This document shows positions 8,045-59,365 of a stretch of 64,000 nt of DNA, in pieces; the stretch's first letter is position 1; the number at the start of each line of letters is the position of its first letter. This DNA comes from Candidatus Wolfebacteria bacterium GW2011_GWB1_47_1 (GTDB lineage: Bacteria; Patescibacteriota; Minisyncoccia; UBA6257; UBA9933). The DNA lies in NCBI GenBank assembly GCA_001029635.1, contig CP011209.1:747969-811968 (forward strand), read 5' to 3'. The notes under the pieces were generated by a model. The model was not told where the DNA came from. It was given only the letters and a program-made list of their open reading frames with translations, and did not search any database. The position numbers were made by a program, and so were the translations under genes.

Positions 8045-8045
8045 A

Positions 8046-8849
8046 TTAAACACAATTCTTCATCAACTCATTTATATACTTAGTAAAGCATTTATAGAAG
8101 TTATCGGCAGAAATATAGTACTTCTCGAAATATAGCTTCGTACCTGATGCTGGGATATTATCAACAAAGTTCAGATTTCTATAATTTGTCCTTAAGCGCA
8201 TTAGATGAAAAAAGTCGAAGATGGATACTTTTATGTTTCTCTTGAAATTATCTATTCTAATCTTGTCTTTGGTCCGCCTACCTGATAAACCATTTACTAT
8301 TTTATAGTTATCGATTTTATCATTTGCAACCTTTTTCATTAAAAGCCTGTAAATGGTATCGTCAGCAACGCCCGTCTTCAGATGCTCCCCTGCTTGTGTG
8401 GTAAAACTTAAAATCTCTTCACCAAAAACCAAGTTTAAGAGCGGTTTATTGAACTGTATTTCAGAGCTTTCAAGCATCTTAGTAAATGCGTTTACGCACT
8501 CGTGATGTCCCGCAGTTAAAGACGACATTTTACCGCTAATAATGCAATCGGAGATGCAGAGCAAATGATAAATCAAATAATAAGTTTTAACAGGTAGCCA
8601 AAGGACCGATGCCGATGAATAGTCTTCATCAAAACATACAATTTCGTATTCTTGGTCAATCGACTTTTTTGTCAATCTAACCAACTGTATTTTATCTTTC
8701 AACTTTCCGCCCTCAGACTTAGGTAGCTTCGAATTAGGCGAGGAAATTATTTCAAGATTATTGGAAAGCTTCGCGATAAGAGCTGCATATTTTAAGTGAG
8801 TCTCAAAATCCAATCGGTCGCTTGTCGGACGAGGGGCGTAAATTGCCAT
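8046..8849 (-). CDS. hypothetical protein (267 aa)
   Basis: ORF track; no recognisable motif; lies between the recombinase and the R-M system. Confidence 0.5.
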   Translation of the reverse strand: MAIYAPRPTSDRLDFETHLKYAALIAKLSNNLEIISSPNSKLPKSEGGKLKDKIQLVRLTKKSIDQEYEIVCFDEDYSSASVLWLPVKTYYLIYHLLCISDCIISGKMSSLTAGHHECVNAFTKMLESSEIQFNKPLLNLVFGEEILSFTTQAGEHLKTGVADDTIYRLLMKKVANDKIDNYKIVNGLSGRRTKDKIRIDNFKRNIKVSIFDFFHLMRLRTNYRNLNFVDNIPASGTKLYFEKYYISADNFYKCFTKYINELMKNCV

Positions 8850-8889
8850 ATGTTTGAATTATATTCCGCTGTAAAGTAAAGTAAAGAGT

Positions 8890-10449
8890 ATGGACATCTA
8901 CCGAGTTGATGTAAATCATACTCAAAAGGGATATTTAGATGAGAAAGAGCTACTTATTTTATACTGGCTCCTTAGGAAAAAAAGCATCTCCACTCTCTGG
9001 AGCAATGTATTTAAGCCGAATACCGATTTTACGCTTCACGCCCCAAGTAATCCAAGTGAAATAGCAACGCTTGAAGATGATATAAATACCTCGATTGAAC
9101 GGCATACTCAAAATATACGCACTAAAGTACAATCGTCTTCAATTATTTCCTATCTACTTGAATTAGGTAAAACCTTTGATGCAAGGGGGTTTTCCATATC
9201 TTGCAATGCAGACTATAGCCTTGTCGAGGGCGGGTTTCTTTGCAATTACGTCGCAGACGCAATGTATGAATATCTTCAAGATACCGATAAAGGACGCGCT
9301 AATAAGAAAAAGTATGGCGATTTAAATAAAGAGCAGAAAAACTTTCTTCAAGATGTGGTCAAGAATGGTAATTTAGACACAATAAAACTTTCAAGACTTG
9401 CCAAAACTCCCATAAAAGAATATGAGGAAGCCATCTTAGATAGACACGCGGATGAAGATTTTATCGAATTAGTAAATAAGTTAATCACGGAATATGACGG
9501 CGGTAAATGGAATACGGAAGATGTCGAGAAGTTTTTAGCGATTTATTATCGGCACAACAAGGAGAACTTTAAAAAGCACGCCCTATCATCTGGGCTTCTT
9601 ACTAAAAATGATAGCCAGACTGCATTATCAAAGCTAATTTTCGAGCATATTGATGTTCGTTTAAGTATAAAAGATACTCAAAAACTTAAGGATTATTTAG
9701 ATAAATATATTGCTTTCTTTATTGACGATGAACTGAATGGCCCCAGCAAGAGCGGCTTAACTGCAACCTTTTTCTCTAATGGACTAACACTACCCCTATA
9801 TACTCAATTTTTTGGGTTTAAAAAACAAAAGAATATCTTAGTTAAGTATATTGAAGGAAAGTATGAAGAATACCAAAGAAACGACTTGGAAATCGGACAC
9901 CCGTATTTTGAACCTGAGTATATAGGGGATAATAAAAATGATACGGTAAAGATTACCATAGCAGAAAAGGACAAACTGAAATCCCTCTTTCTATTTGTTC
10001 ATACAATGTTAGCTCTTGAGTATACAAGGTGTCTGAATGTTGAAGAGTTTTCCTACGGTACTACTGGCTTATTCGACCTATATGACAGAGGTTTTCTTTT
10101 TAAGGTTAATATAGATAAGGGAACTTTTTCCGAAGAAACAAAGCAAAGAACGGGTATTGCTTTTGACCTTGATAAATCTCGCTTCTATGTTCAGGGAAAA
10201 GAAATAAAGCTGCTCAAGTTCAAGGACGAATATCATACCCTCAGAGTTATATTTGAAGACCCTAATGAACTATCCAAAGAGTGGTTTTTCTCTGAGATTG
10301 GAGAGAAAATTGATGAGAATAACTTAGACGATAAGAAATACTATAACGCAATATATCAACTGCGATTAAAGCTTGAAAAGCAGGGCATAAATGACTTTTT
10401 TATTACAACAAAACAATCAGTAAAAATAAGCCCCAAATACCTGTCTTAG
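8890..10449 (+). CDS. hypothetical protein (519 aa)
   Basis: ORF track; no Walker or nuclease motif seen; divergent from 8046..8849. Confidence 0.5.
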   Translation: MDIYRVDVNHTQKGYLDEKELLILYWLLRKKSISTLWSNVFKPNTDFTLHAPSNPSEIATLEDDINTSIERHTQNIRTKVQSSSIISYLLELGKTFDARGFSISCNADYSLVEGGFLCNYVADAMYEYLQDTDKGRANKKKYGDLNKEQKNFLQDVVKNGNLDTIKLSRLAKTPIKEYEEAILDRHADEDFIELVNKLITEYDGGKWNTEDVEKFLAIYYRHNKENFKKHALSSGLLTKNDSQTALSKLIFEHIDVRLSIKDTQKLKDYLDKYIAFFIDDELNGPSKSGLTATFFSNGLTLPLYTQFFGFKKQKNILVKYIEGKYEEYQRNDLEIGHPYFEPEYIGDNKNDTVKITIAEKDKLKSLFLFVHTMLALEYTRCLNVEEFSYGTTGLFDLYDRGFLFKVNIDKGTFSEETKQRTGIAFDLDKSRFYVQGKEIKLLKFKDEYHTLRVIFEDPNELSKEWFFSEIGEKIDENNLDDKKYYNAIYQLRLKLEKQGINDFFITTKQSVKISPKYLS

Positions 10450-10516
10450 ATTTGTCTTAAGTTAACTCAAGACAACATATCGATAACCTGTAGGCATAAC
10501 CTACGGGTTATTTCTT

Positions 10517-10714
10517 ATGCAGGAAGTTGCCGTCGAAAATGAAGTTAGAAAAGGCTTCAAAATAAATGATTTATCTCTTGAGGAAAGGCAAAGACTGGTC
10601 GGTGCTTTTGCGTGGCTCATAGAACAAGACAAGAAGCAAAATCCTGCACTTTATCAACCTAAAAAACAAGACGAAGATGATAGATACAATATGCCTTCTG
10701 ATACCCAAGAATAG
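10517..10714 (+). CDS. small acidic hypothetical protein (65 aa)
   Basis: ORF track; preceded by the hairpin aacctgtaggcataacctacgggtt. Confidence 0.3.
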   Translation: MQEVAVENEVRKGFKINDLSLEERQRLVGAFAWLIEQDKKQNPALYQPKKQDEDDRYNMPSDTQE

Positions 10715-11819
10715 GATGACTTATCTATTAGGGCCATCCAGTTGGGAACTATATTCCAAGACGGACCAATACGAAAAATATGTTCGCAACCCCAGCAAGA
10801 CAGAAAAAGAAACAGGACAATACTTCCCACGACTAACTGGATACAAGCGACGCTTTGCCCAAGATGCGAATGTTCGCATAGAGCTGTCCGTCCCCAAATT
10901 GCTGTATCGCAATAATCTCGACGAACTTGAAGAAAAAGACTTTCCGCGAGTAATCGAGATACTACTAAGGAGACTTGAGACTATGGGAGTGGTAGTTGAT
11001 AAGTCAGTTCTTGAAAATGCCTCAGTAAGCTCAGTTCATTTTTCAAAGAACATTCTACTCCAAGACGGGTATACCGCAAACCATTTAATCTCCGAAATGA
11101 ATAAGGTAAACCTTAAAAAGAACTTCGATTTTGCCAAAACAAGATTTATGAATGATGGGCAGAGCCTCTATGCCCATACAACCTCTCATCAGCTTGTAAT
11201 ATACGACAAGATAGCCGATATGGGGAAAGATGCGAAGAGAGCAATGGATAAAGACCAGACCTCGCGCCAAAAAAGTCTATTCGCAGAGTTAAGTAAAGCG
11301 AGCGAGCAACTGGAAATTATACGCTTTGAAATCCGCCTCAACCACAAGCAGAAAATGAACAAACTCCTTGAGAACTTAGGGTACGAGAAAAACCCAGTTT
11401 TCAGGCAGGTATTCAATACCAAAATGAGCAAAACCGTTGTTGCGCATTACTGGGAAAAACTTATCAAAGAGCGCAATTTGGGCATTTTCTCAATATCGCT
11501 AAGTATTAAGGATGTACTTCGAACTTTATTCTTAGCGGATAAAACACTAAAACCCAAACAGGCTATATATCTTCTCGGACTTTTTATGCTTGCAAAGGAC
11601 GAAGGTGGACTAAGGCAACTGCGGACTATTGTTTCAAAAAGGTCTCGCGATAGGACTTGGTATCGCATCGCACAAGATATGCAACAAGCCAGCAAGCTAA
11701 TTACAAAAAATAAGCTCCGAGATTGGGTTACGCAGATTGACAAAAGCCTTGATGAATATGTGCCATATAAGCATAAAAAATCAGCTATTATTAGTCCTCT
11801 GCCCCACTACTTAGCATAG
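10677..11819 (+). CDS. hypothetical protein (380 aa), possibly a replication or mobilisation protein of the element
   Basis: ORF track; an alternative start at 10716 (MTYLLGP) would avoid overlap; the functional guess rests on context only. Confidence 0.5.
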   Translation: MIDTICLLIPKNRMTYLLGPSSWELYSKTDQYEKYVRNPSKTEKETGQYFPRLTGYKRRFAQDANVRIELSVPKLLYRNNLDELEEKDFPRVIEILLRRLETMGVVVDKSVLENASVSSVHFSKNILLQDGYTANHLISEMNKVNLKKNFDFAKTRFMNDGQSLYAHTTSHQLVIYDKIADMGKDAKRAMDKDQTSRQKSLFAELSKASEQLEIIRFEIRLNHKQKMNKLLENLGYEKNPVFRQVFNTKMSKTVVAHYWEKLIKERNLGIFSISLSIKDVLRTLFLADKTLKPKQAIYLLGLFMLAKDEGGLRQLRTIVSKRSRDRTWYRIAQDMQQASKLITKNKLRDWVTQIDKSLDEYVPYKHKKSAIISPLPHYLA

Positions 11820-12228
11820 TGCTACTCCATAAATGGTCCCAAATATAAACATTACAAAATAAATTATTATGAAAAATAAAAAGTATAAAATCGATAAGGA
11901 CGAACGACTTGTTGGAATTATAAAAATGGCCTTTGAGCAGTATTATCGCAAGGTTATCTCGGATAATATAAAGAGGTCTTTGGCGCAAAAGCGAGCCAAG
12001 TTGTCCACTAACCCTAAAGTTGCTCTGTAAAGTAATGTAAAGTATAATGAATACCATTATGGAGCCTGAGGAACTCCCAAATGAGAAGGTTAATCGGCGT
12101 ATGGCTATTTTGTTTTGGACATTATCAGTCTGCGCCTTTATGATTATATTTCAGTTAGCAAATCTTATGGTCCCCGAATTATTTCCTCCGTCTTCTATCG
12201 CTCAATCAATATAAGCAGCTGCAACATT

Positions 12229-12411
12229 ATGAACACTAACAAAAAGAACTTCTACAAAGCAGAAGACCTCGCGAAGTTATTAGAGGTAAACATTATGACG
12301 ATTTACCGATATATTAAGGCTGGTCGCTTAAAGGCGTATAAAATTGGTCGTGAGTTTCGAATTGATAAAATTGAGTTTAGTGCTTTTTTAGAAAAAGCGC
12401 GGACTAAATAA
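12229..12411 (+). CDS. excisionase-family HTH DNA-binding protein
   Basis: IMTIYRYIKAGRLKAYKIGREFRIDKIEFSAFLE matches the excisionase/MerR-type HTH. The ORF track entry starts further upstream, at 12115. Confidence 0.65.
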   Translation: MNTNKKNFYKAEDLAKLLEVNIMTIYRYIKAGRLKAYKIGREFRIDKIEFSAFLEKARTK

Positions 12412-12413
12412 AT

Positions 12414-14207
12414 ATGACCGAAAAAGAATTATCACAACAAAAAGAAAGTCGCATCATCAAACTTGAGAAGGAAATTGAAAGATGGAAAAAGGCGGTCAAA
12501 ACCCAGCGCTACGGTTTAGTATGGCTCGATGTGCCTGAAGCATTTGAAGACGATGTCGAAAATAAATTACCCATTCTTGAGGAAGTGCCTAAAAAGGCGA
12601 TAAGGAGTAAGGATGCCAAGCCAACTCATCTACTTATTGAAGGCGATAATTATCACGCGCTTACTTGTTTAAACTACACGCACAAGGGAAAGATTGATGT
12701 AATCTATATAGACCCCCCGTACAATACTGGCTCCGATGGTTTTAGATATAAAGACAAGAGGATATTAAAAGAGTATCCAGACGGTACGGAAGTCCCGAAA
12801 GACCATCCATTTAGGCACAGCTATTGGCTATCTTTTATGAGTAAAAGGTTGGAACTTGCAAAAAGCCTACTAAAAGATACTGGTACTATATTTATTTCGA
12901 TAAATGAAGATGAGTTTGCGCAGCTCAAGTTACTTTGCGACCAAACATTTGGATTAGAAAATTATCTAACAATGTTCACTATTAAGGTAAGACACGAGGA
13001 GCGCATCCTTAAAGGCGATAAAGATTTCCACGAAGTCGTGGAATATCTTTTAATGTATAGATGCTCTTCTGCCTATAAAACCACGAAGAAAATCTATGAT
13101 AATACTTCATTGGATGAATATATTTATCAAGTCATTGAAAAAATAGAGCACCCTAAATCTGTTAAGCTTGGCAATAAGATGGTTGATTATTTTGAGCCAT
13201 CAGAATATGAGATTATAAAGGTGCCAGCGAGTGAGCACAACTTAAAGAAAATAAATATCCGTGGTTCTCTAAAAGAGGGCAATAGTAGTGGTAGATTTTA
13301 TATGGCTCATATTGCTTCAAGAGGTACCAAAGGTGTGCTTTATAAGGTACCAGATATGGGCAATGACAAGTTTGGACATAGATATTTTCTAATACCCGCA
13401 AAAGAAAGCAGGCTAAATGGGGATTATTTTCAGGGGGTACCACTGGACATACAGGACACGAAGAAAGTCCCCTACCCTAACTATTTTGACTTTGAAGCAC
13501 AGTTTAATAGCGTTGGGTATGAGGGGGGTGTCAGTTTCGGGGGCGGCAAAAAGCCAGTCGAGTTTCTTGCGCATTTTATAAATATCGGTTGTACGGATAA
13601 AAATGCAACTATATTAGATTTTTTTGCTGGCTCGGGAAGCACTGGGCACGCAGTTATGCAAATGAATGAAGCCGATAAGGGCAAGAGACAATTTATTTTG
13701 ATTACAAATGATAACGAAATCGTCAAAGATAAAGTTTATCATCCAATGTCTGAGGCGTGCCTGCCACGAATGCAGAACTTGATTAAAGGCTATGACAAGA
13801 ACCCGAGCTTGGGAAACTCAATTAAATACTACAAAACAGCTTTTGTAGGCAAACATAACATTCTTGATGCTGACGACAAAGATAAAATACAGCTCGCCCA
13901 TAATGCAGGGGGTATGCTTGCGATAGCTGAGAATACCTTAGAGCAAATTAAGGGAAACGATTATTGGCAGATTTTTGAAAGTGAGACCAGAATGACTGCT
14001 GTATATTTTAGAGAAGAGCAAGACCAGCTCGATGATTTTATAGACGAAGTCCTATTACTTGGAAAGCCAGTAACCGTATATATGTTTAGCTGGGAAGAAA
14101 AAGTGGATATTGTTGATTTTGAAGAAAATCGAAATATCAGCCTCAAAACAATACCGCAACCCATTCTTGAGATATATAAGCAGATATATAACATTGCTCA
14201 GTTATGA
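12414..14207 (+). CDS. mod: Type III R-M DNA methyltransferase (Mod, beta-class N6-adenine/N4-cytosine MTase)
   Basis: Motif IV IYIDPPYNTG precedes motif I FFAGSGSTGH (beta order), with a TRD between them. The stop overlaps the res start (ATGA). Confidence 0.8.
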   Translation: MTEKELSQQKESRIIKLEKEIERWKKAVKTQRYGLVWLDVPEAFEDDVENKLPILEEVPKKAIRSKDAKPTHLLIEGDNYHALTCLNYTHKGKIDVIYIDPPYNTGSDGFRYKDKRILKEYPDGTEVPKDHPFRHSYWLSFMSKRLELAKSLLKDTGTIFISINEDEFAQLKLLCDQTFGLENYLTMFTIKVRHEERILKGDKDFHEVVEYLLMYRCSSAYKTTKKIYDNTSLDEYIYQVIEKIEHPKSVKLGNKMVDYFEPSEYEIIKVPASEHNLKKINIRGSLKEGNSSGRFYMAHIASRGTKGVLYKVPDMGNDKFGHRYFLIPAKESRLNGDYFQGVPLDIQDTKKVPYPNYFDFEAQFNSVGYEGGVSFGGGKKPVEFLAHFINIGCTDKNATILDFFAGSGSTGHAVMQMNEADKGKRQFILITNDNEIVKDKVYHPMSEACLPRMQNLIKGYDKNPSLGNSIKYYKTAFVGKHNILDADDKDKIQLAHNAGGMLAIAENTLEQIKGNDYWQIFESETRMTAVYFREEQDQLDDFIDEVLLLGKPVTVYMFSWEEKVDIVDFEENRNISLKTIPQPILEIYKQIYNIAQL

Positions 14208-16579
14208 ACATATTCAACCCATCAAAATTTCAAAAAGATGCCGTCATAAATCTAACAGAGATTTTTACTACGGTATGGAAGCAACAAGGTAGACAATTAC
14301 CTATTGTTTTTAAATCCCCGACTGGAAGTGGTAAGACTTTTATGACCTCCCTTTTCATCCGCGGCCTTAACCACCTACCACAGTGGAAAGAAGATAAAGC
14401 ATTTATATGGATTACTTTTAGCGATGATTTGGCTATGCAAAGCAAAAATAAGTTTCTTGAGTATTTTGAAAATATGCTTGAAAATAGAGCTTTGACCGTT
14501 GCAGATATAAATCAAGGCAAACTCTACCAAAATGATATTTTATTTTTAAACTGGCAAAAGGTTACTGCCAAAAATGCTAATACGCGATTAATTCGCCGCC
14601 CCGAAGATAAGGAATGGCAAAAGGAACAGGGAGAATACTTTGAAGATGTGGTCGAACAAACTCAAGCCGATAGTAGACAAATTATCTTAATAATTGATGA
14701 GGCTCACAAGAATAAAGACACAAAACTCGCAAAGGATATTATTGATAAAATTGACCCTAAGGTAATTCTTCACATTACTGCGACACCAAACGAGAAAGAC
14801 GAACTTGAAGCTCGTCGTATTGGCAGTTTTTATGAGGTCCCCCGAGAGGAAGTTGTTGAGCAGGGCTTAATCAAAGAAGCAATCATTACTCAAACGGAAG
14901 AAGATTTCGAGGGTATGTCGGGAAAAGACCTTGATAAAATCCTCCTCGAAAATGGGATGAAAAAACGAGAGGAATTAAAAGCAGAACTTAAATCACTGGG
15001 TAAGAATATAAACCCTTTGATGCTTATACAGTTACCAAATGATGATGATAAACTTATAGAAAAGGGCGAACAGAAGAAGGAGGATATCGTTACTGATTAT
15101 CTTCTTAAAAATAAGGTTCCCGAGCATAGGATAGCAAAATGGTTTAATAAGAACCCTCGGCCAAATAATTTAGAAGAGCTCAGCGATGAGCACGACTTTT
15201 TACTCTTTAAACAGGCGGCTGGAACAGGCTGGGATTGCCCTCGTGCATCAGTACTTGTAATGTTTAGGGAAATACAATCGAATACCTTTTATACTCAAAC
15301 CGTTGGGCGTATTTTAAGAATGCCTGAGCCTCACGCAAAAGAAGATTATAAAAATAACCCCAATCTTCGCTTGGGATATTTATATACGAACTACAAGCGC
15401 AAGGAGGTAATAATACCAGACCAAAATCCCGCCAATCAACCTTTGACTGAGTTTGCCCATAGGAAGAAGGACATAAGCAATATCGAATTACCATCTGACT
15501 ATATTTCTCGCTTAGATTATGGCGATATTCGCGTATCTTCTAAATTTCAAGAAGTATTTAAAACAGAACTAAATAAGCACTTCGGGATTACTAATAATGA
15601 TATTCTTGGAAAAGCAGAAACGAAGCTTAAAAAGGCAGGGTTGGACATTAGCGATACTTTAGTAAATGAAGTTATTGCAAATGCTCGTTTCGAGGATTAT
15701 GACAATCTCGCCTTTGATTTCAGTAAAAAAGGCAGCGATATTTCACTTGAAATGTCAGTAAGTGATATTGAAAAGACTTTTAATTATCTTTGTTATCAAA
15801 TCCTAAGGGAGCAGGAAGACGAGGGAGCTAAGTACTCAAATGTGGCTCGCTCTTGGTCAGTCTTAAAACAAGCGCTTCGCGTCTGGTTTAAAATCGTTTT
15901 GCGAGATGACCATATTTACTGGTATAAGATATTTATCAAAGATGTTCGCAAGGGCGCTGAGAGCAAATTTCGCCCAGCAATAACAAGGGCCTTACGAGCT
16001 TATAAGCCAATTTCTGACAGTCTACTAACCGACAAGAAAATAAAGGTAGAGGAAAAGGAAGCATATATTTTTACCATACAAGGCGAATATGGGTATCCCG
16101 AGCAATACAAAGTTGTCCCTCAGAAGTTATGCGCCTTGGATAAGTTTTACTTGCCCGAAGATTACAATGGGCGTAAAAATGAAATTGCCTTTGTTGAATA
16201 TCTGGAAAAAAAGAAAGGAAAAATTGATTGGTGGTTTAAAAATGGCAATCAGGGAAAGAAGTACTTGGGCGTTAAATACACAAACTCAATAACGAACGAG
16301 GATGGCTTATTTTACCCCGACTGGATTATTCGTTTTCCTGATGGCCGTATAGGTATTTTCGATACCAAAAAAGGAGATACTGCTACAAGCACTGAAACAG
16401 CAGATAAGACAAAGGCATTGCAACAAAAACTTAAGAGTTTTGGAAAAAAGTTTCTTGGCGGTATCGCATATCAAGAAGCGGGCATTTGGTACTACAATGA
16501 TAGCCCCAAATACTCTTTTAAAGAGGGGCAATCGGTAAACGATAGCAAAGAATGGAAGCCTTTTGAGGATTTATTCTAA
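14204..16579 (+). CDS. res: Type III restriction enzyme Res subunit (SF2 helicase plus PD-DxK nuclease)
   Basis: Walker A SPTGSGKT; DEAH box LIIDEAHKN; motif VI TQTVGRILR; C-terminal PDW...IGIFDTKKG nuclease motif. Confidence 0.75.
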   Translation: MNIFNPSKFQKDAVINLTEIFTTVWKQQGRQLPIVFKSPTGSGKTFMTSLFIRGLNHLPQWKEDKAFIWITFSDDLAMQSKNKFLEYFENMLENRALTVADINQGKLYQNDILFLNWQKVTAKNANTRLIRRPEDKEWQKEQGEYFEDVVEQTQADSRQIILIIDEAHKNKDTKLAKDIIDKIDPKVILHITATPNEKDELEARRIGSFYEVPREEVVEQGLIKEAIITQTEEDFEGMSGKDLDKILLENGMKKREELKAELKSLGKNINPLMLIQLPNDDDKLIEKGEQKKEDIVTDYLLKNKVPEHRIAKWFNKNPRPNNLEELSDEHDFLLFKQAAGTGWDCPRASVLVMFREIQSNTFYTQTVGRILRMPEPHAKEDYKNNPNLRLGYLYTNYKRKEVIIPDQNPANQPLTEFAHRKKDISNIELPSDYISRLDYGDIRVSSKFQEVFKTELNKHFGITNNDILGKAETKLKKAGLDISDTLVNEVIANARFEDYDNLAFDFSKKGSDISLEMSVSDIEKTFNYLCYQILREQEDEGAKYSNVARSWSVLKQALRVWFKIVLRDDHIYWYKIFIKDVRKGAESKFRPAITRALRAYKPISDSLLTDKKIKVEEKEAYIFTIQGEYGYPEQYKVVPQKLCALDKFYLPEDYNGRKNEIAFVEYLEKKKGKIDWWFKNGNQGKKYLGVKYTNSITNEDGLFYPDWIIRFPDGRIGIFDTKKGDTATSTETADKTKALQQKLKSFGKKFLGGIAYQEAGIWYYNDSPKYSFKEGQSVNDSKEWKPFEDLF

Positions 16580-16584
16580 ACATT

Positions 16585-18120
16585 ATGAAAGCAATAATCG
16601 TCGCACGAGTATCAACTGAAGAACAAAGAGAAGCTGGTAATTCCCTACCCGCTCAGCTTACTCGTATGCAAGATTATTGCGAGCGGAATGGCTATTCTAT
16701 AATCGAGACTTTTAGTTTTGATGAGAGTGCTTACAAAACCAAGCGCGACGAGTTCGATAAAATCATTGCCTGCGTAAACGGCACAAAAGAAAAGGTTGCC
16801 GTTTGCTTTGATAAAGTAGACCGCCTATCACGCAATATCTTTGATAAGCGGGTTGCCTTACTTTACGAGCGAGCTGTTGATGATAAAATCGAGCTTCATT
16901 TTGTCTCCGATAACCAAGTCATCAACAATAAAATGTCGGCTGGCGACAAGTTTGCGTTCGGAATGAAACTCGGGTTGTCTAAATACTATTCGGATGCAAT
17001 CAGCGATAATGTAAAACGCGCGTTTGAGCAAAAGCGCAGAAATGGCGAATGGACCAGTGCCGTTCGATTGGGATATCTTAATGTTTCCTTAGATGCAGAA
17101 CAGCGGTTACGCAAGGATATTATCATAGACCCCGAGCGAGGGCATCTTATTCAAAAACTATTTGAGCTATATGCAACTGGGAACTACTCACTTGAGACGC
17201 TACGAATAAAAATGATTGAAATGGGCTTAGTGAGCCAAAAGGGTTTCAAGCCGTCAAAAAGCTGTATCGATAATATACTAAATGACACTTTTTACTGCGG
17301 TGTCGCTATGTCAAAGAAATATGGCTCTTTCCCCCATAGATACCCTCGTCTAATAACAAGGGAACTTTTTGATAGGTGCCAAGAGATACGCTTAAATCGC
17401 GTCAAAATGCCCAATAAGGCGCTTTCCAAGGACTTTATATTCAAAGGGTTACTCCGATGTCAGAACTGCGGTTGTTCAATAAGCGCCGAGAGAAAGATAA
17501 AGAAAAGTGGCCGTGAGTTTGTCTACTATTCCTGCACTAATGGCAAAGGTATATGCAAACGGGTGTATATACCCGAAAAAGACCTTCTAAGGCCCGTGTA
17601 CGAGGTTTTAGAGCGGTTTGAGAGCATAACAGAAGAGACACAAAATGAGCTTGTCGCCGAGCTTCGTAAGAATACGGAGGCCGAGGTAGTATTTCACAAG
17701 GCTCAGATAAACCGCATACGAGGCGAATACGAACAGATTAAGACGAAAGATGACCGACTACTTGAGGCATATTTGGACCAGTGTATTACTAAGGACATCT
17801 ATGACAAAAAACATCAAGAGTATGCGGATAAGCTACAGGTTTTGAATATTGAACTTTCCGAGTATACAAAAGCGGACCACGATTACCAAACGACTATTGC
17901 TACCGTGCTTTCTGTCGCTCGCAGAGCAAAGACTATATTTGAGAAAAGTTCTGAAGTTGCAGGAAAACGGGCGTTTCTGAATTACATACTTCAGAACCCG
18001 ACTGTAAACGAAAAAACGCTTGGTTTTACCTTGCGTTCTCCGTTCAACTTAGTCCTAAAACTTGCTGATTGTCCTAACTTGCTCCCCGGGAGGGATTCGA
18101 ACCCCCGACCATCTCGTTAA
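16585..18120 (+). CDS. large serine recombinase (paralog of 6395..8044)
   Basis: VARVSTEEQ catalytic Ser; VDRLSRN; CQNCGC...CTNGKGIC zinc ribbon. The last 13 codons are encoded by the tRNA-Asn 3' half. Confidence 0.85.
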   Translation: MKAIIVARVSTEEQREAGNSLPAQLTRMQDYCERNGYSIIETFSFDESAYKTKRDEFDKIIACVNGTKEKVAVCFDKVDRLSRNIFDKRVALLYERAVDDKIELHFVSDNQVINNKMSAGDKFAFGMKLGLSKYYSDAISDNVKRAFEQKRRNGEWTSAVRLGYLNVSLDAEQRLRKDIIIDPERGHLIQKLFELYATGNYSLETLRIKMIEMGLVSQKGFKPSKSCIDNILNDTFYCGVAMSKKYGSFPHRYPRLITRELFDRCQEIRLNRVKMPNKALSKDFIFKGLLRCQNCGCSISAERKIKKSGREFVYYSCTNGKGICKRVYIPEKDLLRPVYEVLERFESITEETQNELVAELRKNTEAEVVFHKAQINRIRGEYEQIKTKDDRLLEAYLDQCITKDIYDKKHQEYADKLQVLNIELSEYTKADHDYQTTIATVLSVARRAKTIFEKSSEVAGKRAFLNYILQNPTVNEKTLGFTLRSPFNLVLKLADCPNLLPGRDSNPRPSR

Positions 18121-18154
18121 CAGCGAGCCGCTCTACCACTGAGCTACCAGGGAA
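18082..18154 (-). tRNA. tRNA-Asn (GTT)
   Basis: Reverse complement TCCCTGGTAGCTCAGTGGTAGAGCGGCTCGCTGTTAACGAGATGGTCGGGGGTTCGAATCCCTCCCGGGGAG folds as a cloverleaf with a GTT anticodon and a GTTCGAATC T-loop. Confidence 0.85.
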
Positions 18155-22025: not shown

Positions 22026-22081
22026 AGCCGCCTTCGGCGGAAGGTTGAACTGGATCCCGGCTCGGAGGCCGGGATGACAAT
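22026..22081. repeat. dual-hairpin intergenic motif, copy 2
   Basis: agccgccttcggcgg ... tggatcccggctcggaggccgggatgacaat. Confidence 0.45.
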
Positions 22082-29516: not shown

Positions 29517-29827
29517 TCGAAGTGGACAGGTCGGTTACGGTTAACCTACTTGAATCGTCCTAGCAGGAACATGATTCCCGCCGCCATCAGCGCGAGTGTA
29601 AGCCCTTGCTCGATGATCGGAAAGAGTCCTCGCACAATGCGTGTCCCTAGTATTGCGGTCTGCTCGGGAGCGAGGACCGCAAGAATCACCACTCCGATCA
29701 GAACATTTACTAGATTCATCTCTCACCTCTCAATTGATAAGGTTCATATAACCGGCAGATCAGCAGTACGCCGATCAACATTGTTATGGTTATATTATAT
29801 ACCTTATCTCTATTTTTGTCAATATCT

Positions 29828-30844
29828 TCAGTTGAGCTCAATATCGATATGCACCACCTCCGGGTATTCTTCCTGGATGCGCTTCTCTATCTTGTCTATA
29901 TGATTTCCTACGAGTCGTGGCACGCGGTCTATGTAATCGACGCAGAATTTTATAAATTCCTGATAGTCATTCCTCACCTCTTCAAATTCCTCCCTTAATG
30001 CGCCCCGCGCAAACATTTCCTTTGCCAAGGCGTTTCCATTAAACTCAACCTCGCATTTGATACGATACTTCCCCACGTCCATGATTGCTGAACGAAAATC
30101 AGTCACGCTTTCGATCGCGGGATCTTCCTCGAGAATCTCAATAATCCGATCCTTTACCTCTTCTGGTATCGCCTTCCCTAAAAGTAATGCCCGGTTTTTA
30201 TTGATCAAAATAATAGCCATCACTCCCAACATCAATCCGATCACAATCGATCCAATTGCATCCCAATAATAGGCACCCGTGAGTTCGGTTAATAGGATGC
30301 TTACAAATGCGACGACGACACCCAACACAGCAATCCCATCTTCATAGAGCACCGCTATGGTTGCCGGATCGCCGTTCTTGAGAATCTTCTTAAACTTTGC
30401 CTTACCTCCCGTTTTTCTTAATTCTCGGTATGCCACGATCAATGTGCCTGATTCTATGACAAATGAGATTGCAAGGATTGTGAACACTATATACGTCACA
30501 TCCGCATGCTGTGGCCTGATCAAAGCATTAATGCCTTGATAGATTGTCGCACCCGCACCGACAAAGAAGATACCGCATGCCGAGATCAACGCCCAGAGAA
30601 ATCGCTCTTTCCCATAACCGTATGAAAATTCATTTGTCGCCTTCTTTTTTGACCGCCTAATACCCACCATCAACAATGCCTGATTCGCCGTGTCGGCAAA
30701 ACTGTGAATCGCCTCGGATAGCATCGCTCCCGAACCGGAAATAAAAAAGCCCACAAATTTGAGGACTGCAATAAAACCATTACCCAAAAGTGCCGCGATT
30801 ACCGGCAATGTTCCCTGTATACTCTGTGATCTGCTACTGCTCAT
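29828..30844 (-). CDS. cation diffusion facilitator (CDF) family metal efflux transporter
   Basis: 6 TM helices with the HSFADT motif and a C-terminal cytoplasmic domain; start taken at MSSSRSQ. Confidence 0.75.
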   Translation of the reverse strand: MSSSRSQSIQGTLPVIAALLGNGFIAVLKFVGFFISGSGAMLSEAIHSFADTANQALLMVGIRRSKKKATNEFSYGYGKERFLWALISACGIFFVGAGATIYQGINALIRPQHADVTYIVFTILAISFVIESGTLIVAYRELRKTGGKAKFKKILKNGDPATIAVLYEDGIAVLGVVVAFVSILLTELTGAYYWDAIGSIVIGLMLGVMAIILINKNRALLLGKAIPEEVKDRIIEILEEDPAIESVTDFRSAIMDVGKYRIKCEVEFNGNALAKEMFARGALREEFEEVRNDYQEFIKFCVDYIDRVPRLVGNHIDKIEKRIQEEYPEVVHIDIELN

Positions 30845-33564: not shown

Positions 33565-33597
33565 TCCTGGATTCCGGCTCGGAGGCCGGAATAACAC
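33565..33597. repeat. dual-hairpin intergenic motif, copy 3 (partial)
   Basis: tggattccggctcggaggccggaataacac matches the copies at 20161 and 22051. Confidence 0.4.
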
Positions 33598-33923
33598 GCT
33601 ATGAATGTCTGTATTTTGTCTGCGAACATATTAGAACGGCATTTTTGCATCTGATGCAAGCCGTAAAAATAGAGATCAGCGAAGCGAAGAAAACTTCAAC
33701 AGAAATAGCCCTTCGGGGTCCCGCGGAGCTGAGTGGGCGAAGGGTTATTTCGTAAGAAGTTTTTGAACTAAGCCTCTATTTTTATTTCGCTTGCAGATTT
33801 TTTGGTACTTTTTCCAGAAAAAGTACAGGAAATAGTTACATTAAGCCAAAACCCTCGCAAATGCGAAGGTTTAAAATTCAGAATACAACCTGGATCCCGT
33901 GTCATAGTACGGAATGACACAAC

Positions 33924-35156: not shown

Positions 35157-35368
35157 TGCTCCTCCCTTGAAACTCTGGTTTGAAAATCAACTGCTGGATA
35201 AATTATGTACCTAATCCATATTTTTGTCAATATGTTCTATTGACAATTTTGAATAATAAGTGCATGGTTTTATCGTACTTTAGCACTCCGCTCCGGCGGC
35301 CATATGGGTGGCGACCAACGCTAGCACGCCCGAATGCTAAATTTGGGACGAAAGAGGAGGGATAGCAA

Positions 35369-56628: not shown

Positions 56629-56916
56629 TTATCCAAGTATCGCAAAAATGTTATCTTCGTCACCGACCATATATTTCCTTCCCTCGATTTCGACTTCGGA
56701 CAATCCGTATTTTTTATACAACACGGTATCTCCGACCTTGACCGACATCGGGATGCGCTCACCCTTCTCATTCATCTTGCCTTCGCCTACCGCGATCACC
56801 GTGCCGGTGGTCGGCTTTGACTCAGCCGACTCTGGGATATAGATCCCGCTTTTCGTCATCGATTCGGCTTCGATCGGGTCAATGAAGATATGGTTTGCTA
56901 ATGGTTTAATTTGCAT
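56629..56916 (-). CDS. groES: co-chaperonin GroES
   Basis: Start at MQIKPLANHIFIDP; 95 aa. Confidence 0.9.
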   Translation of the reverse strand: MQIKPLANHIFIDPIEAESMTKSGIYIPESAESKPTTGTVIAVGEGKMNEKGERIPMSVKVGDTVLYKKYGLSEVEIEGRKYMVGDEDNIFAILG

Positions 56917-56952
56917 TGCATGCATGAGGTACGAGGTAAGCATTACGAGGTA
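56917..56952. repeat. GAGGTAMG repeat block immediately upstream of the groES ATG
   Basis: catgaggtacgaggtaagcattacgaggtaagcgg. Confidence 0.45.
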
Positions 56953-57085: not shown

Positions 57086-57098
57086 TTTATACAAAAAG

Positions 57099-57116
57099 AG
57101 CCGCTTTTGCGGCTCT
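57099..57116 (-). terminator. terminator gagccgcaaaagcggctc + ttttt
   Basis: Follows the stop of 57122..57406 on the minus strand. Confidence 0.45.
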
Positions 57117-57121
57117 TTACG

Positions 57122-57406
57122 CTATCTTCCCTCCTTTATTTTTGCCCTTAAGCATTTCCGGCAATAGTTAGGAGCATTTCCGCTGATCGGCACATCTACT
57201 ATCGTTCTTCTCTTTTCACCACCCGAGCTGTACACCGTAGTATGCTGCATGTAGACACCCCGCTTGGGATACATCGAGGTCATATGCCCGCATTTGGTCG
57301 CACTCATATATCGGGTGCGCAGCATTCTGTAACAGAGATATATCATACTACATGCTACCAACACGTAGCACGCCCATGCGACCCCTAATAATTGCCGTTC
57401 CACCAT
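57122..57406 (-). CDS. small membrane protein with C-terminal CGH...CRKC (94 aa)
   Basis: ORF track; one TM helix. Confidence 0.4.
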   Translation of the reverse strand: MVERQLLGVAWACYVLVACSMIYLCYRMLRTRYMSATKCGHMTSMYPKRGVYMQHTTVYSSGGEKRRTIVDVPISGNAPNYCRKCLRAKIKEGR

Positions 57407-57469: not shown

Positions 57470-57510
57470 GTTGTGTGTCAAAAGCCCCTTGTTTGGGGGC
57501 TTTTGACACA
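57470..57510. terminator. 17-bp perfect inverted repeat gtgtgtcaaaagccccc / gggggcttttgacacac with loop ttgttt
   Basis: Direct read; lies 8 nt from direct repeat 1. Confidence 0.35.
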
Positions 57511-57518
57511 CTAATATA

Positions 57519-57540
57519 TTATTCTCCGCTTTGTGGTTTA
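57519..57540. repeat. 22-bp direct repeat 1 (ttattctccgctttgtggttta)
   Basis: Identical to 58196..58217 (positions within 1 nt), which encodes the last 6 codons and the stop of rmuC. Confidence 0.7.
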
Positions 57541-57616
57541 CTCTTCTTGCGTTTTGTTGCATTTACATTAATACTATAGGCAGATTTTTTATTTCACTAT
57601 ATGGGAGGAGAATTCC

Positions 57617-58153
57617 ATGAACGGATGCAGATGCCTTAGACACAGGAAATACGGACCTCGAACTGAAACCGCAGAGGACAGGCAACTACGGGCCGATATG
57701 CACGAGATCGCGCGCTGGCAAACAGAGGAGGCCGCGCACAAAGAACTCGTCGCAACTTTCAATGATCCGAGAGTGAGCCCAAGCGATAAGGAGCGCTTAT
57801 TTCACCTCAGGGATTGCGTTCCGAGCATGCTGCGCTTCAGTCGCAAGATGTTCCCCTTTCTCGAACAAGACTCGGACATTGAGTATGCTAAAAGCCTGCG
57901 AAGCTGTCTTGACCTGCCAGGCAAAAGGAGACACCTCAATCGACAATTCCGCTTCGAGAAAGACGACCTGGCGATCGAAACACACCGAGGAGAGGGTCTC
58001 TTTGGGGAAATTGGGCGCTTCCCCCTTACCTCGCTCCAGCTTGAGCTTGAGATCCGGGACAATCCCTGCAAAGATGGTTGCGTGAAAAAGGGTCTTATCG
58101 TTCACGTGCACTACAGGCCTGCCGTGGATTCTCTCGACAGTTCCACCCTCTGA
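57617..58153 (+). CDS. hypothetical Cys-containing protein (178 aa) on a DR-bounded cassette
   Basis: GGGAGG SD 7 nt upstream; followed by a GCCCCGC-type terminator; flanked by 22-bp direct repeats. Confidence 0.55.
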   Translation: MNGCRCLRHRKYGPRTETAEDRQLRADMHEIARWQTEEAAHKELVATFNDPRVSPSDKERLFHLRDCVPSMLRFSRKMFPFLEQDSDIEYAKSLRSCLDLPGKRRHLNRQFRFEKDDLAIETHRGEGLFGEIGRFPLTSLQLELEIRDNPCKDGCVKKGLIVHVHYRPAVDSLDSSTL

Positions 58154-58159
58154 TATCAA

Positions 58160-58188
58160 AATGCCCCGCATCACGCGGGGCATTTTTT
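58160..58188 (+). terminator. intrinsic terminator atgccccgcatcacgcggggcat + tttttt
   Basis: Hairpin followed by a T-run directly after the stop. Confidence 0.55.
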
Positions 58189-58195
58189 GTTTCTC

Positions 58196-58217
58196 GTTAT
58201 TCTCCGCTTTGTGGTTT
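58196..58217. repeat. 22-bp direct repeat 2 (equals the rmuC 3' end)
   Basis: Its reverse complement reads AAA CCA CAA AGC GGA GAA TAA, i.e. KPQSGE*. Confidence 0.7.
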
Positions 58218-59294
58218 ATCAAGCGACATGGGTTCAATCCCCGCTGCCTCGCCCGATATCTTCAGGATATCCTTATCAATCTTGCTGAGTTCTTTATATG
58301 CGGCATTATAGTGGTTCACACTTGTCCCTAGTGTCGTACCCAACTTCTGCATATACATATCGTAACTTGCAATATGCTTACCAAGGTCTTCGACTCGTTT
58401 GCGGATCTCTTTTGCTCCTTCTTCGATCTTGAATGCACGAAATCCGTAAAGCACCGACTGCAGATATGCTGCGAACGTCGTAGGTGAAACGATAATGACG
58501 TTTTTTTCCTTGTATGCGTAATCGATCAGGCTTCGCGTATTTACCTTAACCGCACCTACTTCGTTAATCAACAGGTCGTAGTAGATACCTTCGGCAGGAA
58601 TATACATGAATGCGAACGGCAATGTGCCTTCATTCGGGCGAATATACTTTGCCGTTTCATCGATGCGCTTCTTAAGATCATTTTTAAATTCTTTTTCGAG
58701 TTCTTCCTTTTTTGCCTCATCCGTTTCCGCGATGATGCGGCTATAGTTATCAAGCGAAAACTTTGCATCAACCGGAATGATCCCTTCCTTGGTAATGATC
58801 GCTGCGTCCACCTTTTCCTTGTTCGCAAACTCATACTGCGTCTTATATGCGGTCGGCGGCAAAATATTACTCATGACCAATTCCAGACTTGCCTCTCCCA
58901 AGTTGCCACGCTGCTTTTGGTTCTTCAATACCTTTTCAAGATTCTGTAGCTGGTCTGCGATAGTAAATACCTGTTTATTAGACTCCTGCACTTGCGCGAT
59001 TTGCTCGGTGATGTCTTTGATCAACTTTTGAGATTCTGTGAATTGGGTACGAACTGCGTTCTGCATTTCGTCGCGCGATCGGCTAAATGTTGACTGCATC
59101 TCCTCTCGAGAGTGCGTCAATTTAGTATCAAGCATCTTTGCAATATCGTTGATCTGTGACTGTAGCATCATCATCGACTGATCATCCTTTCGTTCCTCCG
59201 GTTGAGGGGTGAGCCTTTTTAACAAGAAATAGATCGCTACAATTACGATCACTGCGAAAACGACCAATAAGCCAATAAGAGTAAGTATATTCAT
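58197..59294 (-). CDS. rmuC: DNA recombination protein RmuC
   Basis: N-terminal TM helix and coiled coil; conserved C-terminal RmuC nuclease-like domain (GNLGEASLE...FMYIPAEGIY); start at MNILTLIG. Confidence 0.7.
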   Translation of the reverse strand: MNILTLIGLLVVFAVIVIVAIYFLLKRLTPQPEERKDDQSMMMLQSQINDIAKMLDTKLTHSREEMQSTFSRSRDEMQNAVRTQFTESQKLIKDITEQIAQVQESNKQVFTIADQLQNLEKVLKNQKQRGNLGEASLELVMSNILPPTAYKTQYEFANKEKVDAAIITKEGIIPVDAKFSLDNYSRIIAETDEAKKEELEKEFKNDLKKRIDETAKYIRPNEGTLPFAFMYIPAEGIYYDLLINEVGAVKVNTRSLIDYAYKEKNVIIVSPTTFAAYLQSVLYGFRAFKIEEGAKEIRKRVEDLGKHIASYDMYMQKLGTTLGTSVNHYNAAYKELSKIDKDILKISGEAAGIEPMSLDKPQSGE

Positions 59295-59365
59295 AGTAAT
59301 GCGCGCCGGGACATGCAACTTTGTCTCATGTCACATATTTCCATTTATGCTATACTACCACATAT

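What the first reader, a model, noticed from the sequence alone, without database searches (positions are those of the whole stretch)
57470..58217. A ~680-bp single-gene cassette inserted at the 3' end of rmuC, bounded by perfect 22-bp direct repeats
ttattctccgctttgtggttta occurs at 57519-57540 and again at 58196-58217. The second copy is the genuine 3' end of rmuC (KPQSGE plus stop). The first copy is a duplicate of that end, left upstream of an SD-bearing 178-aa ORF and its terminator. Duplication of the target-gene 3' end is the footprint of site-specific or target-primed insertion. No recombinase is present in the cassette.
Basis: seen in the sequence. Interest (0 to 1): 0.65.

Follow-up and report, generated by a model that had tools for sequence, protein, structure and literature searches.

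The report
Displaced rmuC 3' end at a gene-swap hotspot
A perfect 22-base copy of the end of the rmuC gene sits 678 bases from the real one, most likely left when an orphan gene with its own promoter and terminator was recombined in next to rmuC at a spot where related bacteria carry different small genes; it does not look like a self-mobile element.

Summary
The repeats bracket a 656-bp unit with promoter, Shine-Dalgarno site, 178-aa ORF and terminator. Copy 2 is the true rmuC 3' end. Copy 1 is an orphan fragment followed 7 nt later by a strong hairpin that fits an old rmuC terminator.

The genome is a groundwater Candidatus Wolfebacteria (CPR). Comparison with nine other rmuC-groES loci changes the interpretation. 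This spacer is a hotspot filled with different combinations of small self-contained gene modules. The ORF178 family has three members in 1.84 billion proteins. It lies convergent to rmuC with the same right-hand junction in a second lineage that has no repeat. Its left junction differs in all three lineages: 22 nt inside rmuC, about 5 nt past the stop, or against the groES promoter. No relative has a repeat.

This fits recombination anchored by homology in rmuC plus one illegitimate join, that is, 3'-end displacement or homology-facilitated illegitimate recombination at a 'minimal mobile element' type of locus. It does not fit site-specific or target-primed insertion. An SCC-like, trans-mobilised cassette remains a minority rival. 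ORF178 function is unknown. Interest is modest.

The parts
58197..59318 (-). rmuC. The longest ORF is 373 aa from TTG; most annotations use the 365-aa form from the ATG at 59294. It is the conserved flank and the proposed homology anchor.
   Evidence: Pfam RmuC E=5.9e-53. More than 5,500 homologs at E<1e-100. Close relatives all end in ...DKPQ(S/T)GE*.
58197..58218 (-). Repeat copy 2: the functional 3' end of rmuC (third base of the Asp codon, then K P Q S G E and the stop).
   Evidence: The same 22 nt end rmuC in relative L031.
58158..58186 (.). Bidirectional intrinsic terminator shared by ORF178 and rmuC: a 12-bp GC-rich stem with an A-tract on one side and a T-tract on the other.
   Evidence: Terminator scan. 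Fold of -25 to -26 kcal/mol on either strand, z about -4. Terminator plus TTTGTTTC(TC)G plus the rmuC stop is conserved in L030.
57617..58153 (+). ORF178, an orphan protein-coding gene convergent to rmuC.
   Evidence: Full-length homologs P0002 (58% identity) and P0123 (30%, E=7e-15). pN 0.26 against pS 0.74, with differences concentrated at third codon positions; the antisense ORF is not conserved. No Pfam, PHROG or PADLOC family. AF2 model pLDDT 75 with no PDB or BFVD fold match.
57546..57610 (+). Cassette promoter and leader: -35-like (C)TTGCGT at 57546-57552, -10-like AATACTAT at 57570-57577, Shine-Dalgarno GGGAGGAG at 57603-57610.
   Evidence: The only blocks conserved among window, L011 and L030 upstream of the ATG are CTTG, A(A/C)ACTAT and AG(A/T)TTTTTTA. 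Promoter function is inferred, not shown.
57541..58196 (+). The 656-bp unit between the repeats, running from the -35 box to just past the terminator T-run.
   Evidence: Homology with the L011 and L030 copies starts within about 5 nt of 57541 and ends at the terminator T-run.
57519..57540 (-). Repeat copy 1: the displaced, orphan 3' end of rmuC (a 22-nt relic including the stop). No rmuC similarity continues upstream of it.
   Evidence: The only such relic among 7 hotspot loci tested; the best match in relatives has 8-11 mismatches, not significant.
57473..57511 (-). Perfect 16-bp-stem hairpin 7 nt after the relic stop. Read as the probable former rmuC terminator; one arm carries a TTGACA (57476-57481, minus sense) placed 17 nt from TATACC, a probable ORF94 promoter.
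   Evidence: Inverted repeat I5. -29.9 kcal/mol, z=-7.0. Unique in the window. L031 has a similar TGTGTCAAAAA-hairpin arrangement upstream of its ORF95. The terminator and promoter roles are inferred.
57122..57406 (-). ORF94, a small predicted membrane protein. It is the neighbouring hotspot module, on the same strand as rmuC and groES.
   Evidence: 37% identical to ORF95 in L031, which is likewise the last module before groES. No family hit. Followed by a terminator at 57096-57120.
56629..56943 (-). groES (Cpn10), the other conserved flank of the hotspot. A perfect TTGACA-16-TATAAT promoter lies at 57085-57058.
   Evidence: The flank is conserved in all nine related loci.

Best explanation
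The spacer between rmuC and groES in this Wolfebacteria lineage is a gene-exchange hotspot of the 'minimal mobile element' type. Two conserved genes flank interchangeable small modules, each with its own promoter and terminator.

The ORF178-family module normally lies tail-to-tail with rmuC. In the ancestor of this population, DNA carrying [ORF178 module + adjoining rmuC sequence] recombined with a chromosome of the form rmuC-terminator-ORF94-groES. One crossover was ordinary homologous recombination inside rmuC. A single crossover of a small circle through the 22-nt homology would give the same product.

The resident last 22 nt of rmuC, its terminator hairpin and ORF94 were therefore pushed downstream rather than deleted, and rmuC was rebuilt from the incoming copy. 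On this reading the 22-bp 'direct repeat' is simply the rmuC coding homology shared by the two parental haplotypes. That explains why identity ends exactly at the stop codon on one side and at the cassette's -35 box on the other.

Shown: the anatomy, the hotspot, the conserved right junction and the variable left junctions. Inferred: the direction of the event (the mirror version, with the ORF94 module coming in via a groES anchor, gives the same product), uptake by transformation, and the function of ORF178.
For: (1) Hotspot. Nine related rmuC-groES loci carry different combinations of five or more small-ORF families, with no integrase or transposase among the genes in the spacer.

(2) L030/L032 (RmuC 93% identical) have the ORF178 homolog P0123 convergent to rmuC. 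The junction is homologous: terminator, then TTTGTTTCG, then the rmuC stop, against TTTGTTTCTCG in the window. There is no repeat and no ORF94.

(3) In L011 the P0002 cassette (58% identical) abuts the promoter of an ORF77-family gene. That family directly follows rmuC in L033, L038 and L044. The join lies about 5 nt past where the stop would be, and there is no relic.

(4) The left junctions are therefore at -22, about +5, and next to the groES -35 box. All lie at or near the border of rmuC homology and none is the same, as expected for illegitimate joins next to a homologous anchor.

(5) The relic is followed after 7 nt by a strong hairpin (-29.9 kcal/mol, z=-7) and then ORF94. This is the layout rmuC-terminator-module seen in L031, L012 and L044.

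(6) Repeat identity ends exactly at the stop codon.

(7) Only the window has a relic, which fits a single recent event. All sampled members of this population carry it unchanged.

(8) The process is documented elsewhere. Homology-facilitated illegitimate recombination and displacement of resident 3' ends are described in PMC5361080, C-terminal displacement via a circle in PMC2935791, and the MME concept in PMC3082526. CPR bacteria can be naturally competent (PMC10633639, Saccharibacteria).
Against: No parental haplotype close enough (above about 95% nt identity) was found. The nearest relatives are about 80% identical in DNA, so neither donor nor recipient is directly observed, microhomology at the join cannot be checked, and the direction of the event is undetermined.

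The two copies being identical requires very similar parents, or later homogenisation.

Relics in L011 and L030 could have existed and been deleted since, which would weaken argument (4).

A 22-bp perfect repeat ending at a stop codon is also exactly what SCC-type elements leave. Competence is not shown for Wolfebacteria.
Confidence: 0.58

Rival explanations
1. A recombinase-less site-specific cassette, like a ccr-less SCC/pseudo-SCC element or a CIME. A 678-bp circle carrying the last 22 nt of rmuC as attP integrates into the rmuC 3' end (attB) through a recombinase supplied in trans. This rebuilds the gene and leaves 22-bp attL/attR.
For: The perfect 22-bp direct repeats equal the 3' end of a conserved gene including its stop codon. 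SCC elements do the same with 18-bp DRs at the rlmH end (PMC7029136), and those are moved by serine recombinases. Two large serine recombinases are encoded in the window at 6395-8044 and 16585-18120. The cassette is compact and self-contained. The ORF178 family is found next to the rmuC end with a constant right junction.
Against: L030 and L011 carry the family without any repeat and with different left junctions. No other module in nine hotspot loci is bounded by rmuC-end copies. The 22-mer and its flanks show no dyad symmetry or inverted core sites (by inspection). The serine recombinases lie about 40 kb away in a type III R-M island beside tRNA-Asn. No empty-site haplotype was found among the 24 contigs read that carry this RmuC allele. 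The 22-mer was not found in viral or JGI metagenome contigs, where an attP-bearing element could have shown up.
Confidence: 0.2
2. The mirror-image event. The ORF178-rmuC arrangement (as in L030) was resident, and the [groES...ORF94-hairpin-last 22 nt of rmuC] segment came in from a strain lacking ORF178. It was anchored by homology in groES/groEL and joined illegitimately just upstream of the ORF178 -35 box. The mechanism class is the same as the best explanation, but the 'inserted' DNA is the ORF94 side.
For: L030, the relative with the joint-highest RmuC identity, has ORF178-family next to rmuC with nothing else in the spacer. That is compatible with an ancestral state for the pair. The relic is physically attached to the ORF94 module and its hairpin.
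Against: It does not explain why, in both the window and L011, the breakpoint lies within about 30 nt of the rmuC stop. An rmuC anchor predicts that; a groES anchor does not. The relatives are too divergent to polarise the event.
Confidence: 0.15
3. A target-site duplication made by a transposase, by a Cas1-like (casposase) integrase, or by target-primed reverse transcription of an mRNA.
For: Direct repeats flank an insert. The right end of the insert lies about 4-10 nt past the terminator T-run, near a transcript 3' end.
Against: There are no terminal inverted repeats and no transposase. A 22-bp duplication is longer than known TSDs; about 2-15 bp is established knowledge. The unit includes its own -35 and -10 boxes, which a retro-copied mRNA would lack. 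The repeat boundary coincides exactly with a stop codon, which staggered cutting does not predict.
Confidence: 0.03

Closest known systems
Minimal mobile elements (MMEs) of Neisseria (Saunders & Snyder 2002; Snyder et al. 2007, as defined in PMC3082526)
   Same: Two conserved genes (rmuC and groES) flank a site where different whole-gene cassettes occur in different strains. No dedicated recombinase or terminal repeats are present. Exchange is presumed to go by homologous recombination in the flanks after DNA uptake.
   Different: The host is a CPR bacterium. The modules combine combinatorially, with one to three per locus, each with its own promoter and terminator. Classical MME exchange leaves no scar, whereas here a 22-nt relic records one non-homologous join.
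3'-end / C-terminal displacement at Rhs, CDI and T6SS effector-immunity loci, attributed to homology-facilitated illegitimate recombination or circle integration (PMC2935791, PMC5361080; HFIR: de Vries & Wackernagel 2002, Prudhomme et al. 2002, as cited there)
   Same: Incoming DNA is anchored by homology in the conserved part of a gene. The resident 3' end is shunted downstream as an orphan fragment, and the gene is rebuilt from the incoming copy. The downstream neighbour is retained.
   Different: rmuC is not a polymorphic toxin, and its C-terminus is unchanged by the event. The displaced piece is only 22 nt. What is gained is a separate convergent gene, not a new toxin tip with its immunity gene.
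SCC / pseudo-SCC elements at the 3' end of rlmH (orfX) in staphylococci (PMC7029136)
   Same: Direct repeats equal the last 18-22 nt of a conserved gene including its stop codon. Cassettes without their own recombinase can sit between such repeats.
   Different: SCC repeats recur at every element boundary and in every carrier, and CcrAB/C recombinases are linked. Here the repeat is unique to one lineage, the other carriers of the gene lack it, and the insert is only 656 bp.
Phage 'morons' (Juhala et al. 2000; Hendrix et al.; from general knowledge, not checked here)
   Same: A single ORF with its own promoter and factor-independent terminator is inserted between two genes of an otherwise conserved arrangement.
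   Different: The context is chromosomal, not a phage. There are no phage genes nearby, no PHROG hits and no viral-contig hits.

Membership tests
Minimal mobile element (MME)-type hotspot | Two conserved flanking genes in all strains | tested here: met
   rmuC and groES/groEL flank the site in the window, L012, L030, L031, L033, L038, L040 and L044.
Minimal mobile element (MME)-type hotspot | Different whole-gene cassettes between the flanks in different strains | tested here: met
   At least five unrelated small-ORF families occur in different combinations.
Minimal mobile element (MME)-type hotspot | Incorporation by homologous recombination in the flanks after DNA uptake | not testable with these tools
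   This is inferred only. The relatives are about 80% identical in DNA, too distant to map crossovers. Competence is known for Saccharibacteria only (PMC10633639).
Homology-facilitated illegitimate recombination / 3'-end displacement | An orphan fragment of the anchor gene's 3' end downstream of an intact copy | tested here: met
   22/22-nt relic at 57519-57540 with the former terminator.
Homology-facilitated illegitimate recombination / 3'-end displacement | Non-homologous joins at variable positions near the border of homology in independent events | tested here: met
   The left junction is at -22 (window), about +5 (L011), and next to the groES -35 box (L030). There are only three cases, and later deletions cannot be excluded.
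Homology-facilitated illegitimate recombination / 3'-end displacement | Microhomology of 3-10 nt at the illegitimate join between donor and recipient | not testable with these tools
   No donor or recipient haplotype was recovered.
Site-specific integrative element (tyrosine or serine recombinase; SCC-like, CIME-like) | Direct repeats (attL/attR) identical to the target's 3' end flank the element | tested here: met
Site-specific integrative element (tyrosine or serine recombinase; SCC-like, CIME-like) | A cognate recombinase in the element or demonstrably acting in trans | tested here: inconclusive
   None is present in the cassette. Two large serine recombinases lie about 40 kb away in an R-M island, with no link shown.
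Site-specific integrative element (tyrosine or serine recombinase; SCC-like, CIME-like) | The same junctions and repeats in independent carriers | tested here: not met
   L030 and L011 carry the gene family without repeats and with different left junctions. No rmuC-end copies bound any other module.
Site-specific integrative element (tyrosine or serine recombinase; SCC-like, CIME-like) | Empty sites in the population | tested here: not met
   All contigs read with this RmuC allele carry the cassette.
Site-specific integrative element (tyrosine or serine recombinase; SCC-like, CIME-like) | Circular excised forms in the population | not testable with these tools
   Detecting a circle junction needs read-level data, which these tools do not give.
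Integron gene cassette | A promoterless ORF followed by an attC imperfect inverted repeat, in an array next to intI/attI | tested here: not met
   The unit has its own conserved promoter. The only inverted repeat is a GC-rich terminator. There is no array and no intI nearby.
Transposon, casposon or retro-copy with target-site duplication | Terminal inverted repeats with a transposase, or a unit bounded by transcript ends | tested here: not met
   There are no TIRs. The unit includes the -35 and -10 boxes.

The most novel reading that the evidence does not exclude
The ORF178-family unit is a minimal selfish cassette of promoter, one gene, terminator and the last 22 nt of rmuC. It targets the 3' end of rmuC without encoding any recombinase. 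It would do so either as an SCC-like att-bearing circle moved in trans by a serine recombinase, or by carrying the conserved rmuC end as a portable homology arm for spread by transformation. Its fast-evolving protein might act on or against the RmuC nuclease it always faces.
Probability: 0.12. Interest if true: 0.6.

Novelty: new member of a known kind. Interest (0 to 1): 0.27.

Why it matters
This is a clean, datable scar of how streamlined CPR genomes gain genes without mobile-element machinery. Homologous recombination in a conserved neighbour plus one illegitimate join places a whole transcription unit and shunts the old gene end aside.

It marks rmuC-groES as an exchange hotspot in Wolfebacteria. 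It also flags a three-member orphan protein family, always tail-to-tail with rmuC where its right flank could be read, as a candidate for functional study.

It does not reveal a new type of mobile element, and the process itself is already known from Neisseria MMEs, Rhs and T6SS loci.

Tried and rejected
The 22-mer as a common repeat was rejected: it has 2 copies in the window and none in viral or JGI metagenome contigs.

Assembly artefact was rejected: the structure is identical in many independent assemblies.

A longer rmuC remnant beyond copy 1 was rejected: there is no similarity past 22 nt.

I considered the L011 right flank as an rmuC end because a 14-codon in-frame reading was possible. 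I rejected it because the sequence matches the REP-like CTGGATTCCCGCCTCC unit also seen in L012 and in the window, and no RmuC relative ends that way.

A degenerate relic in L030 was rejected: the best match has 9 mismatches, P=0.6.

I looked for a recombination breakpoint inside rmuC and for differing relatedness of the two flanks. This was uninformative, because all relatives are about 80% identical in DNA.

The search for an empty site or parental haplotype through RmuC, ORF94 and ORF178 homologs and cluster members found none.

More family members were sought in metagenome and viral contigs and none was found.

Rfam gave nothing above threshold.

Full report
OBSERVATION

The 22-mer TTATTCTCCGCTTTGTGGTTTA occurs at 57519-57540 and 58197-58218. 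Even with three mismatches allowed there are only these two copies in 64 kb, with none expected by chance. It is the only long short-range direct repeat in the window. Identity ends sharply on both sides.

Copy 2 is the stop codon plus the last six codons (KPQSGE) and one more base of rmuC, which runs 58197-59318 on the minus strand (Pfam RmuC E=5.9e-53). The 656 bp between the copies hold the following features:
- A leader with a Shine-Dalgarno site (GGGAGGAG, 57603-57610).
- A 178-aa ORF on the plus strand (57617-58153).
- A 12-bp-stem terminator (58158-58186) with an A-tract on one side and a T-tract on the other, so it can serve both convergent genes.

Copy 1 is followed 7 nt later, in the rmuC direction, by a perfect 16-bp-stem hairpin (57473-57511; -29.9 kcal/mol, z=-7). 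After that come a 94-aa ORF (57122-57406, minus strand), another terminator, the groES promoter and groES.

The structure is base-for-base identical in more than ten independent assemblies from several sequencing runs. It is real and fixed in the sampled population. The organism is a groundwater Candidatus Wolfebacteria of the CPR.

THE GENE

ORF178 is a genuine gene.
- It has two full-length relatives: P0002 (58% identity) and P0123 (30% identity, E=7e-15). These are the only ones in searches of 5.8 billion and 1.84 billion proteins.
- Against P0002, non-synonymous divergence is 0.26 and synonymous divergence 0.74, with most differences at third codon positions.
- The long antisense ORF that some annotations call instead is full of stops in the relative.

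No Pfam, PHROG or PADLOC family matches. An AlphaFold model built from the three sequences reaches pLDDT 75: an N-terminal long helix followed by a beta-sheet domain. It has no significant match in the PDB or in viral structure predictions. Other structure libraries were unavailable. Function is unknown.

WHAT THE RELATIVES SHOW

Loci around RmuC proteins 81-93% identical to the window's (about 80% DNA identity) all keep rmuC and groES/groEL as neighbours. The spacer between them differs in each:
- L012: two small same-strand ORFs.
- L031: ORF120, a DUF5678-like ORF104, and ORF95, which is 37% identical to the window's ORF94.
- L033: ORF79 and ORF117.
- L038: ORF82 and ORF69.
- L040: two ORFs of 110 aa.
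- L044: ORF79, ORF114 and a tiny membrane ORF.
- L030/L032: only P0123, the ORF178 homolog.

The spacer is therefore a hotspot populated by combinations of at least five families of small modules, each with its own promoter and terminator. None has an integrase or transposase. This matches the definition of a 'minimal mobile element' locus (PMC3082526).

Three observations bear directly on the finding.

First, in L030 the ORF178 homolog lies convergent to rmuC with a homologous junction: terminator, then TTTGTTTCG, then the rmuC stop. The window has TTTGTTTCTCG. L030 has no repeat, and on its other side the cassette's -35 box is 16 nt from the groES -35 box.

Second, in L011 the P0002 cassette abuts the promoter of an ORF77-family gene, on the opposite strand. 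In L033, L038 and L044 that family directly follows rmuC. Homology to those loci runs to about 5 nt from where the rmuC stop would be, and no relic is present. I first thought L011's right flank might be an rmuC end. It is a REP-like unit (CTGGATTCCCGCCTCC) of a family also present in L012 and in the window.

Third, searching each locus's spacer for copies of its own rmuC end finds a significant match only in the window. The relatives' best matches have 8-11 mismatches in 22.

Across the three cassettes, DNA homology begins at a conserved CTTG (-35) … A(A/C)ACTAT (-10) promoter, within about 5 nt of 57541, and ends at the terminator T-run.

INTERPRETATION

The right junction of the ORF178-type cassette with rmuC is constant. 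The left junction differs in each carrier: 22 nt inside rmuC, about 5 nt past its stop, or at the groES promoter. A site-specific recombinase would give the same junctions and the same repeats every time. A retro-copy would lack the promoter. A transposon would have terminal inverted repeats and a much shorter duplication.

What fits is recombination anchored by homology in rmuC, with the non-homologous end joined illegitimately at or near the border of homology. This is homology-facilitated illegitimate recombination, the process invoked for orphan 3' ends and immunity genes at T6SS and Rhs loci (PMC5361080; PMC2935791). The latter paper proposes an equivalent route through single-crossover integration of a circle.

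In the window the join fell 22 nt before the resident stop. The resident gene end, its terminator hairpin and ORF94 were shunted downstream, and rmuC was completed by the incoming copy. This also explains why the repeat ends exactly at the stop codon. Beyond it the two parental haplotypes had unrelated sequence: the cassette terminator in one and the ORF94-side hairpin in the other.

The relic is still 22/22 and is unique to this population, which points to one recent event. DNA uptake by natural transformation is plausible for CPR bacteria (PMC10633639) but is not shown for Wolfebacteria.

LIMITS AND RIVALS

No close parental haplotype was found, so three things remain untested:
- The direction of the event: cassette in via an rmuC anchor, or the ORF94 segment in via a groES anchor.
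- Microhomology at 57540/57541.
- The identity of the donor.

Sliding-window identities along rmuC, groES and groEL are uninformative at this divergence.

The main rival is an SCC-like arrangement. Staphylococcal cassette chromosomes are flanked by 18-bp repeats that are the end of rlmH including its stop, are moved by serine recombinases, and include recombinase-less members (PMC7029136). The window does encode two large serine recombinases.

Several points weigh against this rival:
- The repeat is missing in the other carriers.
- The other modules at the hotspot have no repeat boundaries.
- The 22-mer shows no dyad symmetry.
- The recombinases lie about 40 kb away in a type III restriction-modification island.
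- No empty site was seen.

I put the rival at about 0.2, and it is testable with read data.

VERDICT

This is a new instance, in a CPR bacterium, of a known kind of event: gene-module exchange at a conserved-flank hotspot with displacement of a 3' end. Interest is modest. The residual interest lies in the three-member orphan family always facing rmuC and in the minority possibility of a trans-mobilised minimal cassette.

Noticed in passing
window 6395-18153: Two large serine recombinases (6395-8044, 549 aa; 16585-18120, 511 aa with Zn_ribbon_recom) bracket an HTH_17 protein (12115-12411), a type III R-M pair (N6_N4 methylase 12414-14207; ResIII helicase 14204-16579) and several ORFs with no family. 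The second recombinase ends at tRNA-Asn(GTT), 18081-18153 (minus strand). This is probably an integrated R-M island at a tRNA gene.
   Followed up: partly
window 58181-58226 (protein P0137, JGI/IMG contig of 3860 bp, not fetched): A 483-aa protein in the database equals RmuC residues 1-356 fused to the antisense reading of the ORF178 cassette. A 46-nt deletion between two ATG triplets reproduces it exactly and removes repeat copy 2, the rmuC stop and part of the terminator. It is either a real deletion variant or an assembly error.
   Followed up: partly
window 58153-58159 (ends of contigs L004, L005, L010): Three independent assemblies of this population break within 7 nt of each other, at the ORF178 stop and terminator start. 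This might reflect population heterogeneity at the terminator and rmuC end, possibly the deletion above, or trouble with the hairpin. It remains unexplained.
   Followed up: no
window 22050-22079, 33567-33596, 33890-33919; L012 8215-8285; L011 1031-1046: REP-like palindromic units (CTGGATCCCGGCTCGGAGGCCGGGATGACA and relatives such as GTCATTCCCGCGGAGGCGGGAATCCAG) recur in intergenic regions of this genome and of related Wolfebacteria. One lies immediately after the P0002 cassette terminator in L011.
   Followed up: no
window 57797-58237 (minus strand): Several public annotations call a 124-141-aa ORF antisense to ORF178 instead of ORF178 itself. That ORF is not conserved in the relative. ORF178-family genes are therefore under-represented in protein databases, and the antisense 'hypothetical proteins' are probably spurious.
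   Followed up: yes
window 29787-29835 and 35195-35243: A 49-nt direct repeat, 82% identical and 5.4 kb apart, contains TTTTTGTCAATAT. It is possibly a shared promoter or operator upstream of two genes.
   Followed up: no
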